From a virus, in the UHGV virus genome UHGV-0324772: DNA of 8,054 nt. One strand, 5' to 3'. Numbering within the stretch: the stretch's first letter is position 1; each line of letters starts with the position of its first letter. This document shows positions 2,688-7,828 of the stretch, in pieces. The notes beneath the pieces were generated by a model. That model saw only the letters and a program-made list of their open reading frames with translations, was not told the DNA's origin and ran no database searches. Both the position numbers and the translations under genes were made by a program.

Positions 2688-3015
2688 GTGGTTGGCTTTT
2701 CGCTGATTATCATGCCGGATATGACCCGCTACGCTGGTGATGGGGCAGGGATTAAGGCCATTACAGGCGGTGACAAGGTGGCAATTGACCCGAAACACAA
2801 AGCCCCCTATTCAACGCGTATTCCGGCAGTAGTGCTGGCGGTTAACAATAACGCCATGTCATTCAGTGACCGCAGCGGGGGGATCTCACGTCGTCGGGTG
2901 ATATTCAATTTTTCGGAAGTTGTACCGGAGAACGAACGCGATTCGATGCTGGCGGAAAAAATAGAAGGTGAGCTGGCGGTAGTGATTCGTCATCTGCTTA
3001 CACGGTTTGTTTTTT
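2688..3015 (+). CDS. P4 alpha-type helicase-domain fragment on the opposite strand to the rest of alpha (probable misassembly or inversion)
   Basis: Track ORF 2688..3017. ITGGDKVAIDPKHKAPYSTRIPAVVLAVNNNAMSFSDRSGGISRRRVIFNFSEVVPENERDSMLAEKIEGELAVVIRHLLTRF matches the region after Walker B in P4/D5-type helicases. Its 3' end (2976-3013) is the reverse complement of 2649-2686 with one mismatch. The stop codon is formed partly by adapter bases. Confidence 0.6.
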
Positions 3016-3073
3016 AATGATACGGCGACCACCGAGATCTACACTCTTTCCCTACACGACGCTCTTCCGATCT
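3016..3073 (+). other. Illumina TruSeq universal (P5) adapter, 58 nt, exact: sequencing/assembly artefact
   Basis: AATGATACGGCGACCACCGAGATCTACACTCTTTCCCTACACGACGCTCTTCCGATCT read directly at 3016-3073, preceded by TTTTT (3011-3015). Confidence 0.97.
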
Positions 3074-4351: not shown

Positions 4352-4576
4352 TTATTCTCCGGTATAGCTCTGGTCGTGTATTTTTATAGCTTCATCCAGC
4401 TCTTTGATGACAGGATCAAGTAACGTAATTAACGCTCCAGCTAAATTAGCATCCCGTTCATCGTGTTCCGCATTTGTTGTCCCATCAAGCCAGGTTGATA
4501 AGATTTCTCGCATATTTTTGCCACAAACGAGCGCGTTTTCAGCATGTGTCAGCACTTTAAAATAAAGATCATTCAT
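4352..4576 (-). CDS. Hypothetical small protein (74 aa), alpha-operon member
   Basis: Track ORF; start overlaps the upstream ORF end by 8 nt; acidic, helical-looking sequence. Confidence 0.45.
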   Translation of the reverse strand: MNDLYFKVLTHAENALVCGKNMREILSTWLDGTTNAEHDERDANLAGALITLLDPVIKELDEAIKIHDQSYTGE

Positions 4577-4934
4577 GGCACACCTCCTGACGAATACGGG
4601 CGGCGAATATCATCACGTAGCCAGTTGGGGATTGCAGCCGGGCTTCCTGTTCGCTGGCGGCCTCGATGTGTATTACGCGTGGTTGTGCGGTGCTCAGGGC
4701 GATAAAACGCCAGATGAAATTGTTTTCGCATTTCTGAATAAACAGCGTGTTTTCTTCACGCCCTTTCCAGAAAGCCGCAGTATAGCCCATCTCCTTAACC
4801 ATCTTGCGGGCATCAACCAGCGTGTCAGCGGCTACATGTACCGTAGTTGCTCCATCTGCCATGCGGTCGTGGTGTAGTGCCAGAAAGGTGTATATAAATT
4901 TAGGGTGAGTTTGGGTATGCTGTGTTCCAGCCAT
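4569..4934 (-). CDS. Hypothetical protein (121 aa), first gene of the alpha operon
   Basis: Track ORF; GAGG 8 nt upstream of ATG 4934; sits downstream of the predicted minus-strand promoter. Confidence 0.5.
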   Translation of the reverse strand: MAGTQHTQTHPKFIYTFLALHHDRMADGATTVHVAADTLVDARKMVKEMGYTAAFWKGREENTLFIQKCENNFIWRFIALSTAQPRVIHIEAASEQEARLQSPTGYVMIFAARIRQEVCHE

Positions 4935-4996
4935 AATCGTTACCTCATTTAACGGGTTGGTTAGACGCCTCGATGGTGTTCCCGCACGTCGAGGCG

Positions 4997-5076
4997 TTGC
5001 ATTTTCCTAAACACGTATGTAATGTGTCATCACACATTAACACATTACATCGGGTGTAATTGACGTGTCAACACAC
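4997..5076. promoter_or_regulatory. Divergent promoter region with repeated operator-like half-sites (ACACATTA / TGTAATGT)
   Basis: Plus strand: TTGCAT (4997-5002), 17 nt, TAATGT (5020-5025). Minus strand: TTGACA (complement of 5066-5071), 18 nt, TAATGT (complement of 5042-5047). Inverted repeat atgtaatgtgt (5017-5027) / acacattacat (5040-5050), plus acacatta (5032-5039) and gtgtaatt (5054-5061). Confidence 0.4.
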
Positions 5077-5244
5077 AAAAATCAAAGACGTGGTAATCCT
5101 CCGTTCCAGTTTCGGTTAGATCCTGAGTTGAGGGAGTTGATGGAGCAAGCACAGCAAGTAGATGGAGACGAATCTTTAGCAGCCTGGATTAAAAGGATTA
5201 TTCGCAAAGAACTACAGCAACGCGGATATGAAGTCAAAATTTAA
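5065..5244 (+). CDS. Small ribbon-helix-helix (Arc/CopG-like) putative transcriptional regulator; start uncertain (GTG 5065 or ATG 5140)
   Basis: Below the track's length cut-off. Frame open from 5041 to TAA at 5242-5244. Translation ...PPFQFRLDPELRELMEQAQQVDGDESLAAWIKRIIRKELQQRGYEVKI has a beta-strand then two helices, as in RHH proteins. Divergent from the alpha operon, convergent with the TIR-like gene. Confidence 0.4.
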   Translation: MSTHKNQRRGNPPFQFRLDPELRELMEQAQQVDGDESLAAWIKRIIRKELQQRGYEVKI

Positions 5245-5257
5245 CAGATAATATTTC

Positions 5258-5290
5258 ATATAGAGCCATTTATCTCGAATGGCTCTATAT
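5258..5290. terminator. Perfect 13-bp stem hairpin between convergent genes (putative bidirectional terminator)
   Basis: atatagagccatt (5258-5270), loop tatctcg, aatggctctatat (5278-5290); followed on plus by gattttta. Lies between the RHH stop (5244) and the TIR-like stop (5320). Confidence 0.55.
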
Positions 5291-5319: not shown

Positions 5320-6195
5320 CTAAACTGCGTAACCAGTAGCTCGCAAGTCTTTAATAATGCTATATGCTACTTCTTCAATAGAAGAATTGAATTTTTTATA
5401 AATAAGACCATTCAAATCACTTGGAATCACTACATCACCTGTGTATAGACAACAAACCTTAGAACGACCTAATTTCCCTACGAAATAACCAAATTCAAAC
5501 ATTACATTTGGTCGTGCACGTAACTCCTTTTCTCTTTCATTATCAGGTAAAGAGTCTTGCGGCAATAAATAAGCGATCTCATCAGGTGTGAGAAGAATGA
5601 ATGCGAAACCAACATCACTATTTGCTTCAAATTTCTCAATCACTGTCTGGCCTACATCAGCTTGCCTATGGAGAACAATAGGTTCTAAGCCAATTTCTCT
5701 TAAAAACACCTCTAAGTTGGTTTTTGATATTTCATCTCTTCCATGAACAATGAATACTTTTTTGGTTTTTACCGCTGAACTCTGAGGTACTTCAATATTT
5801 TCTTCAACAACTTTGGAAGATATAGGAATTAACTCCAGTCGCTCCATAATCGACTCTAGTTTTCTTATCTTACTCTGGAGTTTACGCGTAGCCTCACTGA
5901 TTTTTTCTCCCAAGGAAGTCTCGTACAATGAAATAACACCAAATGCCCCACCTTCATATTCTTCTTTGAAATCATCATTTGTGAAACTACGCTTCAGTAG
6001 CTCAGCATTAAAATCACTCCATTTCCTGTAATCAGCATTAAACAGCTCCAAGTCACTATTGTTATTTATGCTTTTCTGTAGGAGTAATAATCCTTTTTGA
6101 ATTCTGTCTTGAATTTTATCTTTCATATCATCTCTTGATATGATTAGTTCACAAACAGTTTTCATTTCTACGCTATTTTTTTTTCGAGTAGCCAT
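5320..6195 (-). CDS. TIR-like (COG4271/PF10137-type) domain protein with an unassigned N-terminal domain; candidate anti-phage NADase effector
   Basis: Track ORF, 291 aa. Residues about 145-291 carry the pattern I associate with TIR-like nucleotide-binding proteins: KKVFIVHGRD, GLEPIVLHRQ, TVIEKFE, VGFAFILLTPDE, RARPNVMFEFGYFVGKLGR, IPSDLNGLIY. N-terminal about 140 aa is helical with no TM segment or known motif. Good RBS (AAGGGTG, 5 nt, ATG). Visibly AT-rich compared with flanks. Confidence 0.7.
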   Translation of the reverse strand: MATRKKNSVEMKTVCELIISRDDMKDKIQDRIQKGLLLLQKSINNNSDLELFNADYRKWSDFNAELLKRSFTNDDFKEEYEGGAFGVISLYETSLGEKISEATRKLQSKIRKLESIMERLELIPISSKVVEENIEVPQSSAVKTKKVFIVHGRDEISKTNLEVFLREIGLEPIVLHRQADVGQTVIEKFEANSDVGFAFILLTPDEIAYLLPQDSLPDNEREKELRARPNVMFEFGYFVGKLGRSKVCCLYTGDVVIPSDLNGLIYKKFNSSIEEVAYSIIKDLRATGYAV

Positions 6196-6231: not shown

Positions 6232-6459
6232 TTATGTCCGCCATTCCCCCCTAATCCATGCCTGAACTTCGGAGAGACGGTAAGCTACCGCAGTAGCGCC
6301 AATCTTGATCCGCTTAGGAAATTTTCCTTCCTTCTCCAGCTTCCAGCGTGTGCTGTTCGCAAGAGTGGTTAGCTCCCGACATTCTTTCTCACGGATCATA
6401 CGATCAATGTTAGGAATGTACTCCAGACCCTTTTTATCAACAATTGCCATTTTTTTCAT
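6232..6459 (-). CDS. alpA: AlpA/Vis-family small DNA-binding regulator or excisionase-like protein
   Basis: 75 aa; the central segment resembles AlpA-family (PF05930-type) prophage regulators; lies 1 nt downstream of the integrase stop on the same strand. Confidence 0.7.
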   Translation of the reverse strand: MKKMAIVDKKGLEYIPNIDRMIREKECRELTTLANSTRWKLEKEGKFPKRIKIGATAVAYRLSEVQAWIRGEWRT

Positions 6460-6460
6460 G

Positions 6461-7696
6461 TTAACCAGCCTTTTGTTTGAGGATTGTCACTTTTGAATCA
6501 GCACCTGCGATGCTATTGAGATATGTAGTCCAGAGTTCCAGAGCATCCAGTTTTTTAGCCATAAACTTACTCCGATTGTAAACACCTGCCACGCCAGGTA
6601 GCGCATGGCCTAACAGTTGTTCTACTACATAAAATTCAACACCGAGATCACTTAGATGAGTAGATAGCGTTCTTCTAAGGTCGTGTAGTGACCATTGTTT
6701 TTCATGGCCCAAACGTTTACCGATTTTCCCCCCAATCTTGCTTACGCTTTCTCTAATTCGCAGACTTCCCAGCACATAACCAGTATGTTTTGTCTCTTCG
6801 TGAACATCCGTTACCCACTGTCGTAGAATTTCAGGTACTGGTCTGACGATTTCAACACCAGTTTTTGAGTGATCTTTTGGTACAGTCCAAACCCAACTTT
6901 CGAGATCCCATTCGCTCCATTCTGATAATCGGGCTTCACTCATTCGACATCCAAATACTGTACAAAGCACAAACATTTTTCGCGTGTATTCAGACATTAG
7001 TTTTAAATCAGGCTCGACAAAAATTGCCTTCCAGAGCTGGCCGAGTTCGGCTTCATCCAGAACCCGATCCCGCTTACCTGCAATCTGCCCCACATCACTC
7101 ATGCGCAAATCCTTTAAAGCATCACACGTCGCGTACTGGCGTACCCGACAAAAACGAAGAGCTAATTTAGTGTCAGAAAAAACATACGCCGCCATAACTG
7201 GTGCATTACGTTTAATTCGGTCAAAACAGTCCAGCCATTCATATAGGTGAGTGTCATTTACGGGCAAATGACCGATATAGGGAAAGATATGCTTTCGAAA
7301 TCTGCCAAGCGTTACAGCATGAGTTTTACGACGCACCTTACAGTAATTTTCATACCAGTAATTTAGTGCATCCTCCACTGTGACCGGCTTTAAGCGTTCT
7401 TCAGCCTGAATCTTAATCTGGATACGCGGATCACGTTTGTCAGCCAACCAACCACGGCACTCGTCGCGCTTTTCCCTTGCCTGTTTGAGTGACATATCAG
7501 GATATTTACCCAACGTTAGCCAGACCGGAGCAGCCCGGCCACCTGCTAACCTGTAGAAGAAAACAAAGCTCACAGCCCCTTTAGTACTCACACGAATAGA
7601 AAGCCCCTTTCCATCAGCAATGGTGATCTGCTTTTCTCTGGGTTTCCCCAGATATCCTTTAAGCGCTTTGTCGCTCAGTTTGTTCTCGCCAGCCAT
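6461..7696 (-). CDS. int: Tyrosine site-specific integrase, P4-like family
   Basis: Track ORF 6461..7747; likely start at ATG 7696 (MAGENKLSDKALKGYLGKP...ADGKGLSIRV resembles the P4-type N-terminal arm-binding domain). C-terminal catalytic signatures HDLRRT and LLGH...GVYNRS (Tyr). Confidence 0.9.
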   Translation of the reverse strand: MAGENKLSDKALKGYLGKPREKQITIADGKGLSIRVSTKGAVSFVFFYRLAGGRAAPVWLTLGKYPDMSLKQAREKRDECRGWLADKRDPRIQIKIQAEERLKPVTVEDALNYWYENYCKVRRKTHAVTLGRFRKHIFPYIGHLPVNDTHLYEWLDCFDRIKRNAPVMAAYVFSDTKLALRFCRVRQYATCDALKDLRMSDVGQIAGKRDRVLDEAELGQLWKAIFVEPDLKLMSEYTRKMFVLCTVFGCRMSEARLSEWSEWDLESWVWTVPKDHSKTGVEIVRPVPEILRQWVTDVHEETKHTGYVLGSLRIRESVSKIGGKIGKRLGHEKQWSLHDLRRTLSTHLSDLGVEFYVVEQLLGHALPGVAGVYNRSKFMAKKLDALELWTTYLNSIAGADSKVTILKQKAG

Positions 7697-7828
7697 TTTT
7701 AGCCCCAAAAAGCAATACAAGCTGCAATACAGAGATGATTGCAACACACAGATAACGAGGAAAATTCAGTGAAAGCGCCAGATAAACTTATTCTTTATTA
7801 TCAAAAGATTAAGTGTAAAAACCAGCAA

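What the first reader, a model, noticed from the sequence alone, without database searches (positions are those of the whole stretch)
4935..5244. Candidate genetic switch: divergent promoters, repeated operator half-sites and a small RHH-like regulator
Between the alpha operon (leftward) and a small rightward ORF there are two near-consensus sigma70-like promoters facing apart (TTGCAT-17-TAATGT on plus; TTGACA-18-TAATGT on minus), interleaved with ACACATTA/TGTAATGT repeats including an 11-bp inverted repeat. The rightward ORF, 34-60 aa depending on start, has a ribbon-helix-helix-like pattern. This could be the immunity or induction control point of the satellite and may also gate the cargo region.
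Basis: inference. Interest (0 to 1): 0.5.

Follow-up and report, generated by a model that had tools for sequence, protein, structure and literature searches.

The report
Satellite control region: Arc-like repressor plus antisense RNA
The flagged stretch looks like the control region of an E. coli phage satellite: a small Arc-like DNA-binding protein, two promoters that face each other, and a previously unnoticed SymR-like antisense RNA, which together probably keep the satellite's replication genes silent.

Summary
The window is a helper-embedded PICI satellite (integrase, AlpA, cargo, Icd-like gene, primase), not a P4-type element.

- **The ORF.** ORF 5065-5244 is a genuine 59-aa gene with a GTG start and strong third-codon-position variation. 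It is found across Enterobacterales and Pasteurellaceae. Profile, pattern and fold evidence point to an Arc-like ribbon-helix-helix (RHH) protein, though each line is weak.
- **The promoters.** They face each other, not apart. Each -10 hexamer lies in one arm of the 11-bp inverted repeat (2 of 2000 shuffles match it). The leftward -35 TTGACA overlaps the ORF's start codon in 66 of 68 related loci. The rightward promoter is weak by score but holds its position.
- **The operator.** Subfamilies with a different N-terminal strand carry a different palindrome at the same place, as expected for a cognate operator.
- **The missed part.** Positions 4929-~5003 (+) encode a ~77-nt structured RNA, antisense to the ribosome site and start codon of the Icd-like gene. 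It has its own -10 inside that gene, strong covariation, a wobble bias fitting only the + strand, and reciprocal sub-threshold matches to SymR.

The model PICI EcCICFT073 has the same layout. I found no evidence that the region gates the cargo gene. No binding or transcription has been measured.

The parts
4916..4921 (+). Predicted -10 hexamer (TATGCT) of the antisense-RNA promoter. It lies inside codons 5-7 of the Icd-like gene. The matching -35 in this window is poor (TATAAA, about 4893-4898).
   Evidence: A TAnnnT hexamer sits 36-41 nt left of the conserved GGTTAGA anchor in 59 of 60 distinct loci, in 12 different versions, over at least nine different amino acids at the overlapped codon. 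Caveat: the hexamer was selected by pattern, so the informative result is its near-universal presence at a fixed distance. Inference only; no start site has been mapped.
4929..5003 (+). Predicted SymR-like cis-antisense RNA of about 77 nt. It has an outer stem 4929-4933/4958-4962, an inner stem 4937-4942/4950-4955 and a loop 4943-4949 carrying CCUC (complement of the SD). The terminator hairpin follows.
   Evidence: The + strand folds at -32.1 kcal/mol (z -5.0), against -22 kcal/mol (z -1.9) for the - strand. In 59 sequences, 95.8% of cells are paired, 13 of 18 pairs change on both sides, and 0 of 500 shuffles reach this. There are 114 G.T wobbles against 6 A.C. Rfam SymR matches the same place at 24.1 bits here and up to 41.2 bits (E 2.4e-4) in relatives. 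My model R1 finds K-12 symR at 24.8 bits, E 0.003. The ends are inferred from the SymR alignment.
4964..5008 (+). Intrinsic-terminator-like hairpin (stem 4964-4998) with a U-rich tail (TTGCATTTTCC) that ends the antisense RNA. The tail overlaps the -35 of the rightward promoter.
   Evidence: The T-run follows the stem on the + strand only.
4997..5025 (+). Predicted rightward promoter of the small ORF: TTGCAT, 17 nt, TAATGT. The predicted start site is near 5032.
   Evidence: It is weak by score (7.6 bits). A TTGnnn(17-18)TAnnnT promoter is nevertheless the best plus-strand site at -64 to -69 from the ORF start in 59 of 68 loci, including subfamilies with a different operator. TTG at 4997-4999 is invariant in 44 distinct spacers.
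5017..5050 (.). Predicted operator. The inverted-repeat arms are 5017-5027 and 5040-5050, and the inner palindrome is ATGTGT(5022-5027)-catc-ACACAT(5032-5037). The ACACATTA unit occurs three times (5020-5027 inverted, 5032-5039, 5040-5047).
   Evidence: GTAATGTGT and ACACAT are near-invariant while the neighbouring spacer 5006-5016 varies freely. Binding has not been tested.
5042..5071 (-). Predicted leftward promoter of the Icd-like/primase operon: TTGACA (5071-5066), 18 nt, TAATGT (5047-5042). The predicted start site is near 5035, giving a leader of about 100 nt.
   Evidence: TTGACA occupies the same position, overlapping the ORF's start codon, in 66 of 68 loci. This holds in all protein subfamilies although their N-terminal residues differ. 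The -10 appears as 13 different TAnnnT hexamers.
5052..5056 (+). Shine-Dalgarno-like GGGTG, 8 nt before GTG 5065.
   Evidence: Relatives have GAGGTG or GGGGTG at the same place.
5065..5244 (+). Small ORF of 59 aa with a GTG start: the predicted Arc-like ribbon-helix-helix DNA-binding protein.
5258..5290 (.). 13-bp perfect hairpin between the converging small ORF and the TIR cargo gene, probably a two-way terminator.
   Evidence: One search gives -18.2 kcal/mol on + and -17.1 kcal/mol on -, with z about -4.5 and -4.1. The U-tracts are weak.
4569..4934 (-). First gene of the leftward operon, an Icd-like protein of 121 aa. Its SD (GAGG, 4946-4943) and start codon (4934-4932) are covered by the antisense RNA.
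   Evidence: NCBIfam phage_ICD_like scores 8.8e-22. The same annotation appears in L001 and L002.

Best explanation
Window 4916-5290 is the early control region of a Gram-negative phage-inducible chromosomal island (PICI). It appears to contain three promoters and two repressors of different kinds.

1. **Leftward promoter.** A strong promoter (TTGACA-18-TAATGT) drives the Icd-like gene, orf74, the DUF4222 gene, the primase and the downstream genes.
2. **Rightward promoter.** A weak promoter directly facing it (TTGCAT-17-TAATGT) drives a 59-aa Arc-like ribbon-helix-helix protein.
3. **Operator.** The two -10 hexamers sit in the two arms of an inverted repeat. The protein, as a dimer of dimers, is predicted to bind there. 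It would repress the leftward operon and limit its own synthesis, as P22 Arc does at Pant/Pmnt.
4. **Antisense RNA.** A third promoter, embedded in the first codons of the Icd-like gene, makes a SymR-like antisense RNA of about 77 nt. This RNA is complementary to the leader, Shine-Dalgarno sequence and start codon of the leftward mRNA, and it stops at the hairpin that abuts the rightward -35. It would block translation, or trigger decay, of any leftward transcript that escapes repression.

**Shown here:** the motifs, their conservation, that the ORF is coding, the RNA structure with its strand bias, and the resemblance to RHH folds and to SymR.

**Inferred:** the start sites, protein binding, the direction of regulation, and the effect of the RNA.
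For: **The ORF is a real gene**
- 113 homologues were found, with 16 invariant residues in the alignment.
- There are 884 synonymous against 250 non-synonymous codon differences.

**RHH character**
- PHROG 228 'Arc-like repressor' scores 1.6e-5, and 32 of 33 family members match it.
- The AF2 model (pLDDT 80.6) has an extended N-terminal segment followed by helices 20-33 and 38-52.
- The top Foldseek hits are Arc, NikR, ParB of pCXC100 and ParD/PrpA.
- hhalign places PPFQFRLDPEL on Arc's PQFNLRWPREV.

**Promoters**
- Their position is conserved in 66 of 68 loci (minus strand) and 59 of 68 (plus strand), with varied TAnnnT hexamers.

**Operator**
- The inverted repeat has a shuffle frequency of about 0.001, and the phylogenetic footprint marks it as conserved.
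- The palindrome tracks the N-terminal strand:
  - PPFQFRLD goes with ATGTGT-N4-ACACAT.
  - KQIALRVE goes with AAGTGTcatACACTT.
  - DQYQIRLA goes with two copies of TTGTAATTACAA, one at each promoter.

**Antisense RNA**
- See, as listed under the parts.

**Generality**
- EcCICFT073 has the same layout, with the RNA module (63.5 bits with R1, not in the training set) and a different RHH with its own repeats.
- 655 of 5426 complete E. coli genomes hold a match to 4935-5244.

**Precedent**
- Arc represses two overlapping promoters (PMC2724298). P22 immI combines two RHH repressors with the antisense sar RNA (PMC2629481).
- The SymR promoter lies inside the symE ORF (PMC1891008).
Against: - No experimental data exist for any step.
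- The rightward promoter in this window scores no better than chance on its own, and the simple scanner found neither promoter.
- The -35 of the antisense promoter is poor here.
- All SymR matches are below Rfam's gathering score of 61, and the window's own match has E 0.39.
- Many loci are related, so counts across loci are not independent.
- In the KQIALRVE subfamily the main palindrome lies downstream of the leftward -10 rather than on it, so repression of the leftward promoter need not work the same way everywhere.
- Published work assigns activation of PICI genes to AlpA (PMC6092414), and how that fits with this region is unknown.
Confidence: 0.6

Rival explanations
1. The small protein only regulates its own gene, or some distant target. 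The leftward operon would then be governed by AlpA-driven read-through and by the antisense RNA, not by this protein.
For: RHH proteins are typically autoregulators. The palindrome always overlaps the rightward -10, but in the KQIALRVE subfamily it is not on the leftward -10. AlpA is the known activator of PICI genes (PMC6092414).
Against: In this window and the other PPFQFRLD loci, the right arm covers the leftward -10. In the DQYQIRLA subfamily a second identical palindrome sits in the leftward promoter's spacer. With overlapping footprints, occupancy of either site should affect both promoters.
Confidence: 0.2
2. There is no separate antisense RNA. The hairpins would act within the leader of the leftward mRNA, or the GC hairpin would simply insulate the rightward promoter from stray + strand transcription.
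For: No start site has been mapped, and the -35 of the proposed promoter is poor in this window. All SymR scores are below the family threshold.
Against: There are 114 G.T against 6 A.C pairs, so the helices are kept only on the + strand. The T-run follows the stem only on +. A TAnnnT hexamer lies at a fixed distance in 59 of 60 loci across unrelated coding contexts. The matches with SymR are reciprocal and full-length. The insulator variant remains compatible with the strand bias.
Confidence: 0.12
3. The ORF is an orphan RHH antitoxin of a type II toxin-antitoxin pair.
Against: No downstream gene exists here; a terminator hairpin follows the stop codon. The downstream ORFs in relatives are short, unrelated to each other and matched no toxin family in annotation. 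The conserved partner is the divergent Icd-like operon.
Confidence: 0.03
4. The promoter-like hexamers and repeats are chance features of an AT-rich spacer.
For: The plus promoter scores below the shuffle median, and the scanner reported nothing.
Against: The shuffle frequency of the inverted repeat is about 0.001. Position is conserved across diverged subfamilies. In the footprint, hexamers and repeats are fixed while the spacer varies.
Confidence: 0.03

Closest known systems
Phage P22 immunity I region (arc, mnt, ant, sar RNA)
   Same: Small RHH repressors bind an operator shared by two overlapping, opposed promoters (PMC2724298). An antisense RNA acts on the ribosome site of the regulated gene (PMC2629481). 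The N-terminal pattern PxFxFRxxxE[LV] resembles Arc and Mnt (Arc register; the Mnt sequence is from my own knowledge).
   Different: There is one RHH gene here, not two. The regulated operon is Icd-like plus replication genes, not an antirepressor. The antisense RNA resembles SymR, not sar. Sequence similarity to Arc is not significant.
SymE/SymR of E. coli K-12 (Rfam RF01809)
   Same: An RNA of about 77 nt runs antisense across the start codon and ribosome site, with its promoter inside the first codons of the target ORF (PMC1891008). Both have a two-domain fold ending in a terminator. The covariance-model matches are reciprocal and full-length.
   Different: The target is an Icd-like gene heading a satellite operon, not symE. 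The transcriptional partner is an RHH protein, not LexA. Scores of 24-41 bits lie below the family's gathering score of 61.
Phage P1/P7 immunity I (c4 RNA, icd, ant)
   Same: An RNA repressor acts on the translation start of an icd-type gene that heads an operon (own knowledge; C4 is Rfam RF01695).
   Different: C4 is made from the same strand and acts in trans on two sites. No C4 or isrK match exists in this window at E up to 1, although one relative, L064, carries both further left.
SaPI Stl and other Gram-positive PICI master repressors
   Same: A repressor gene is transcribed divergently from the excision and replication operon of a phage satellite (PMC6092414).
   Different: Stl proteins are larger helix-turn-helix repressors that are lifted by helper-phage proteins. 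Nothing here shows how, or whether, a helper counteracts the RHH protein.
YlcI/YnfO family (NCBIfam NF041551)
   Same: PGAP gives this name to the identical protein WP_024190704.1 in one genome. EcCICFT073's counterpart also carries it.
   Different: The window protein scores 18.8 bits against a cut-off of 30 and is labelled 'hypothetical' in another genome. I found no functional study of the family.

Membership tests
Ribbon-helix-helix (Arc/MetJ) superfamily | An N-terminal strand followed by two helices of about 45 residues in total. | tested here: inconclusive
Ribbon-helix-helix (Arc/MetJ) superfamily | A glycine-containing turn between the helices and a hydrophobic/basic alternation in the strand. 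| tested here: met
   G34 and D35 are invariant. F14, R17 and L18 are invariant in the strand PPFQFRLD. The register matches Arc in hhalign.
Ribbon-helix-helix (Arc/MetJ) superfamily | Dimerisation through a two-stranded sheet that reads the major groove of repeated sites. | not testable with these tools
   Only monomer prediction was available. Indirect support: the palindrome changes with the strand sequence.
Ribbon-helix-helix (Arc/MetJ) superfamily | A significant sequence match to a curated RHH family. | tested here: inconclusive
   Pfam gives no RHH hit. PHROG 228 'Arc-like repressor' scores 1.6e-5. A PDB profile search finds nothing relevant.
SymR antisense RNA (RF01809) | A covariance-model score at or above the gathering score of 61 bits. 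| tested here: not met
   The window scores 24.1 bits (E 0.39). Relatives score 23.6-41.2 bits, with a best E of 2.4e-4.
SymR antisense RNA (RF01809) | Encoded opposite the 5' end of a gene, covering its ribosome site and start codon, with the promoter inside that ORF. | tested here: met
   This is shown by geometry and conservation, compared with PMC1891008. The start site is inferred, not mapped.
SymR antisense RNA (RF01809) | The target gene is symE. | tested here: not met
   The target is an Icd-like gene.
C4 / isrK / P4 CI immunity RNAs | An Rfam match in the control region. | tested here: not met
   There is no hit in the window at E up to 1.
Gram-negative PICI, helper-embedded type | Co-oriented int, alpA and primase genes, with the island inserted in a prophage late gene. 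| tested here: met
   The window has int, AlpA and D5-type primase. In identical or near-identical copies (L001, L002) the island splits a lambdoid major capsid gene, as described in PMC10111431.
Type II antitoxin (VapB-like RHH) | An adjacent co-transcribed toxin gene. | tested here: not met
   No ORF follows the gene; the hairpin at 5258-5290 does.
YlcI/YnfO (NF041551) | A score above the curated cut-off of 30 bits. | tested here: not met
   The score is 18.8 bits.

The most novel reading that the evidence does not exclude
The Arc-like protein and the SymR-like RNA together are the missing repression system of Gram-negative PICIs. The face-to-face promoters would form a bistable switch that a helper phage flips. 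It could do so with an anti-repressor, or with AlpA-driven transcription that runs antisense through the repressor gene into the replication operon. The cassette would also be portable: it is found in front of different Icd-like/replication operons and, on plasmids, in front of a BREX defence operon.
Probability: 0.3. Interest if true: 0.75.

Novelty: new variant of a known kind. Interest (0 to 1): 0.6.

Why it matters
[quoted passage not shown] Searches of the held literature found no description of this small gene or of an antisense RNA in these satellites.

The same module is present in the model island EcCICFT073, so the proposal can be tested directly in an existing experimental system. 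If it holds, it would explain how these widespread satellites stay silent and what a helper phage must overcome. Sequence similar to 4935-5244 occurs in about 12% of complete E. coli genomes. It would also extend the SymR type of antisense control from one chromosomal locus to a large family of mobile elements.

Tried and rejected
- **Consensus promoter/terminator scan.** It found neither proposed promoner nor the hairpins, because its rules exclude 3-of-6 hexamers and loops over 8 nt. I replaced it with a weight-matrix scan across loci.
- **Pfam and PADLOC on the small ORF.** These gave nothing useful.
- **PDB sequence profile search.** It returned only chance hits.
- **P4-type immunity.** No C4 or isrK RNA is in the window, so I rejected the P4 CI model for this element.
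- **RNAalifold.** It recovered only the terminator helix, so I supplied the first hairpin by hand and tested it by pair counts.
- **Wobble-T statistic.** The apparent 'always T at the wobble position' is partly circular, because hexamers were chosen by the pattern TAnnnT. I therefore rely on how often such a hexamer is present at a fixed distance.
- **Toxin-antitoxin reading.** I rejected it for lack of a partner gene.
- **Gating of the cargo gene.** No shared promoter or repeat was found. ACACATTA-type motifs cluster only at 5018-5050.
- **Dimer or protein-DNA structure prediction.** This was not possible with the tools offered.

Full report
**1. What the window is**

The window carries, all on the minus strand:
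- an integrase (6461-7747);
- an AlpA-family gene (6232-6459);
- a TIR-domain cargo gene (5320-6195);
- an operon made of an Icd-like gene (4569-4934), orf74, a DUF4222 gene, a D5-type primase, an SSB and a major capsid gene.

Identical or 98%-identical copies in two complete E. coli genomes sit inside a lambdoid prophage's major capsid gene. This is the 'helper-embedded PICI' configuration described by Tommasini, Mageeney and Williams (PMC10111431). The element is therefore a Gram-negative PICI, not a P4-type satellite.

**2. Checking the observation**

- TTGCAT at 4997-5002, 17 nt, TAATGT at 5020-5025 on the plus strand;
- TTGACA at 5071-5066, 18 nt, TAATGT at 5047-5042 on the minus strand;
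- an 11-bp perfect inverted repeat at 5017-5027 and 5040-5050, with a third ACACATTA unit at 5032-5039.

An inverted repeat this long appears in 2 of 2000 dinucleotide-preserving shuffles of the spacer.

Two points needed correction. First, only the minus -35 is consensus. The other three hexamers match at 3 of 6 positions, the simple scanner reports neither promoter, and the plus promoter scores below the shuffle median. Second, the promoters face each other. Each sits beyond the other's start site, so the predicted starts fall at about 5032 (+) and 5035 (-). A polymerase on one promoter would exclude a polymerase on the other.

**3. The small ORF is a real gene**

The 59-aa form starting at GTG 5065 recurs in 113 database clusters from Enterobacterales and Pasteurellaceae. 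Its alignment has 16 invariant residues.

Across 39 distinct homologous ORFs, variable columns fall 25/15/50 by codon position. Synonymous differences outnumber non-synonymous ones 884 to 250. The bias also holds for codons 2-25 (11/7/23). The 34-aa reading from the internal ATG is therefore wrong.

A GGGTG, GAGGTG or GGGGTG ribosome site lies 8 nt upstream of the start in all relatives.

**4. Is it a ribbon-helix-helix protein?**

- Curated libraries give only weak matches. PHROG 228 'Arc-like repressor' scores 1.6e-5, and 32 of 33 family members match it. YlcI/YnfO and a VapB model are both below their cut-offs. Pfam has no RHH hit.
- The AlphaFold model (pLDDT 80.6) has an N-terminal segment at 13-18 followed by helices 20-33 and 38-52.
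- hhalign puts PPFQFRLDPEL on Arc's PQFNLRWPREV, but with low probability.

Taken together the fold assignment is likely but not proven.

**5. Comparative evidence for promoters and operator**

I collected 69 loci from other species and several E. coli variants.

- In 66 of 68 usable loci, the best minus-strand promoter has TTGACA at exactly the same place, overlapping the ORF's start codon. It is followed after 16-18 nt by one of 13 different TAnnnT hexamers.
- This holds in subfamilies whose N-terminal residues otherwise differ. It therefore suggests selection on the DNA motif rather than on the protein.
- A plus-strand TTGnnn(17-18)TAnnnT is the best plus-strand site at -64 to -69 in 59 of 68 loci.
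- In 44 distinct spacers of the window's subfamily, the TTG of the plus -35, GTAATGTGT, ACACAT and TGTCAA are fixed or nearly so. The spacer 5006-5016 varies freely.

The palindrome changes with the protein's predicted DNA-reading strand:

| N-terminal strand | Palindrome at the equivalent position |
|---|---|
| PPFQFRLD | ATGTGT-N4-ACACAT, plus flanking TGTAATG units |
| KQIALRVE | AAGTGTcatACACTT |
| KQIAFRVE | GTGTtgtACAC |
| DQYQIRLA | two copies of TTGTAATTACAA, one over each promoter |

EcCICFT073 carries a different RHH subfamily with GGTGTGGCCCAC direct repeats. This co-variation is what a cognate repressor-operator pair predicts. It is the best available substitute for a binding assay.

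**6.

The GC-rich hairpin at 4965-4997 is followed by a T-run on the plus strand only.

- Among 42 distinct stems there are 37 G.T pairs against 4 A.C pairs.
- In a 59-sequence alignment of the whole element there are 114 G.T pairs against 6 A.C pairs. The helices are therefore maintained for a plus-strand RNA.
- Two helices show 95.8% pairing, 13 of 18 pairs with changes on both sides, and no shuffle or slid control that comes close.
- The plus strand folds at -32.1 kcal/mol (z -5.0), against -22 kcal/mol (z -1.9) for the complement.

Left of the structure, a TAnnnT hexamer (TATGCT at 4916-4921 here) lies at a fixed distance in 59 of 60 distinct loci. It occurs in 12 versions and lies over codons for nine different amino acids in unrelated N-termini of the leftward gene.

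The predicted RNA would start near 4929. It would run antisense across the start codon (4934-4932) and the Shine-Dalgarno sequence (4946-4943, whose complement CCUC lies in a loop). It would end near 5003.

Rfam's SymR model aligns full-length to exactly this place in the window and in five of eleven relatives. Scores run from 23.6 to 41.2 bits, with a best E of 2.4e-4, all below the gathering score of 61. A model built from my alignment finds the annotated K-12 symR gene as the only hit in its 12-kb locus (24.8 bits, E 0.003). It also finds EcCICFT073 and a second cassette in L003, neither of which was used for training (63.5 and 55.3 bits).

SymR is likewise made from a promoter inside the first codons of its target ORF (PMC1891008). 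I therefore call this a SymR-like antisense RNA gene. Family membership fails on score and on target identity. The mode of action is inferred by analogy.

**7. Proposed mechanism**

The strong leftward promoter would express the Icd-like/replication operon. The RHH protein, made from the weak opposing promoter, would bind the repeat that covers both -10 hexamers. That would repress the operon and itself, as P22 Arc does at the overlapping Pant and Pmnt promoters (PMC2724298). Any leftward mRNA that is made carries a leader of about 100 nt that is fully complementary to the antisense RNA. The RNA would block translation of the first gene or promote decay.

This is dual control, transcriptional and post-transcriptional. 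It parallels symE (LexA plus SymR), P22 immI (Mnt/Arc plus sar, PMC2629481) and P1 immI (c4 acting on icd, from my own knowledge). How the block is lifted is unknown. Possibilities include a helper-encoded anti-repressor, or AlpA-driven transcription entering from the right.

My confidence that the RNA exists and is structured on the plus strand is about 0.8. It is about 0.8 that the protein is an RHH DNA-binder, about 0.65 that it binds this repeat, and about 0.55 that it represses the leftward operon. For the composite model it is 0.6.

**8. What is not supported**

Nothing links the region to the cargo gene. That gene converges on the ORF, is separated from it by a strong hairpin at 5258-5290, and has no copies of the repeat nearby. 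The toxin-antitoxin reading fails for lack of a partner gene.

**9. Novelty and interest**

Each part belongs to a known kind: an RHH autoregulator with overlapping opposed promoters, and a SymR-type antisense RNA. The combination, its place at the head of the PICI replication operon, and its presence in the model island EcCICFT073 are not described in the papers I could search. The founding PICI paper says the existence of a repressor in Gram-negative PICIs is unclear.

I rate it a new variant of a known kind, with interest 0.6. It is not astonishing to a phage biologist, but it turns an open question into a set of simple experiments.

Noticed in passing
window 3016-3073 (+) and 2688-3010: An exact 58-nt Illumina TruSeq universal adapter sits inside the primase gene. 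Next to it, a piece of the primase gene reads on the opposite strand. This is an assembly artefact, and the primase is intact in the identical island of strain TUM9757.
   Followed up: yes
window 5320-6195 (-): The cargo gene between alpA and the control region encodes a TIR-domain protein. It matches the PADLOC candidate single-gene defence system PDC-S35 (6.9e-67) and Pfam CAP12/Pycsar TIR (1.2e-33).
   Followed up: partly
L001 and L002 (whole loci): The island splits the major capsid gene of a lambdoid prophage and carries its own capsid and head-decoration genes. This is the already published helper-embedded PICI arrangement.
   Followed up: yes
L004 3586-4306 (plasmid pNDM_2_P21_SE1_04.20): The same RHH gene and spacer occur on NDM plasmids of about 100 kb. 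There they lie in front of a short ORF with the Icd-like N-terminus, a WYL-domain gene and BREX genes. This suggests the cassette can be recruited to control a defence operon.
   Followed up: partly
L003 3245-4311; also L034, L040, L054: Some islands have tandem cassettes. L003 has two RHH genes of different subfamilies, each with its own copy of the antisense-RNA module. Other loci have two RHH genes in a row.
   Followed up: partly
L079 8243-9053 (E. coli CFT073, island EcCICFT073): The model PICI has an unstudied divergent pair (a YlcI/YnfO-type RHH plus a 57-aa ORF) opposite its Icd-like gene. It also has the SymR-like module and GGTGTGGCCCAC direct repeats.
   Followed up: partly
L064 2518-2738 (-): One Pasteurellaceae relative also carries significant C4 and isrK immunity-RNA matches, just left of the module. 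Some islands therefore combine both kinds of RNA control.
   Followed up: no
window 4940-4956 and the equivalent in relatives: The small hairpin that presents the Shine-Dalgarno complement in its loop shows compensatory changes between lineages (CGTTA/TAACG, CATTA/TAATG, CGATA/TATCG). In some lineages the ribosome-site complement lies in the outer stem instead.
   Followed up: partly
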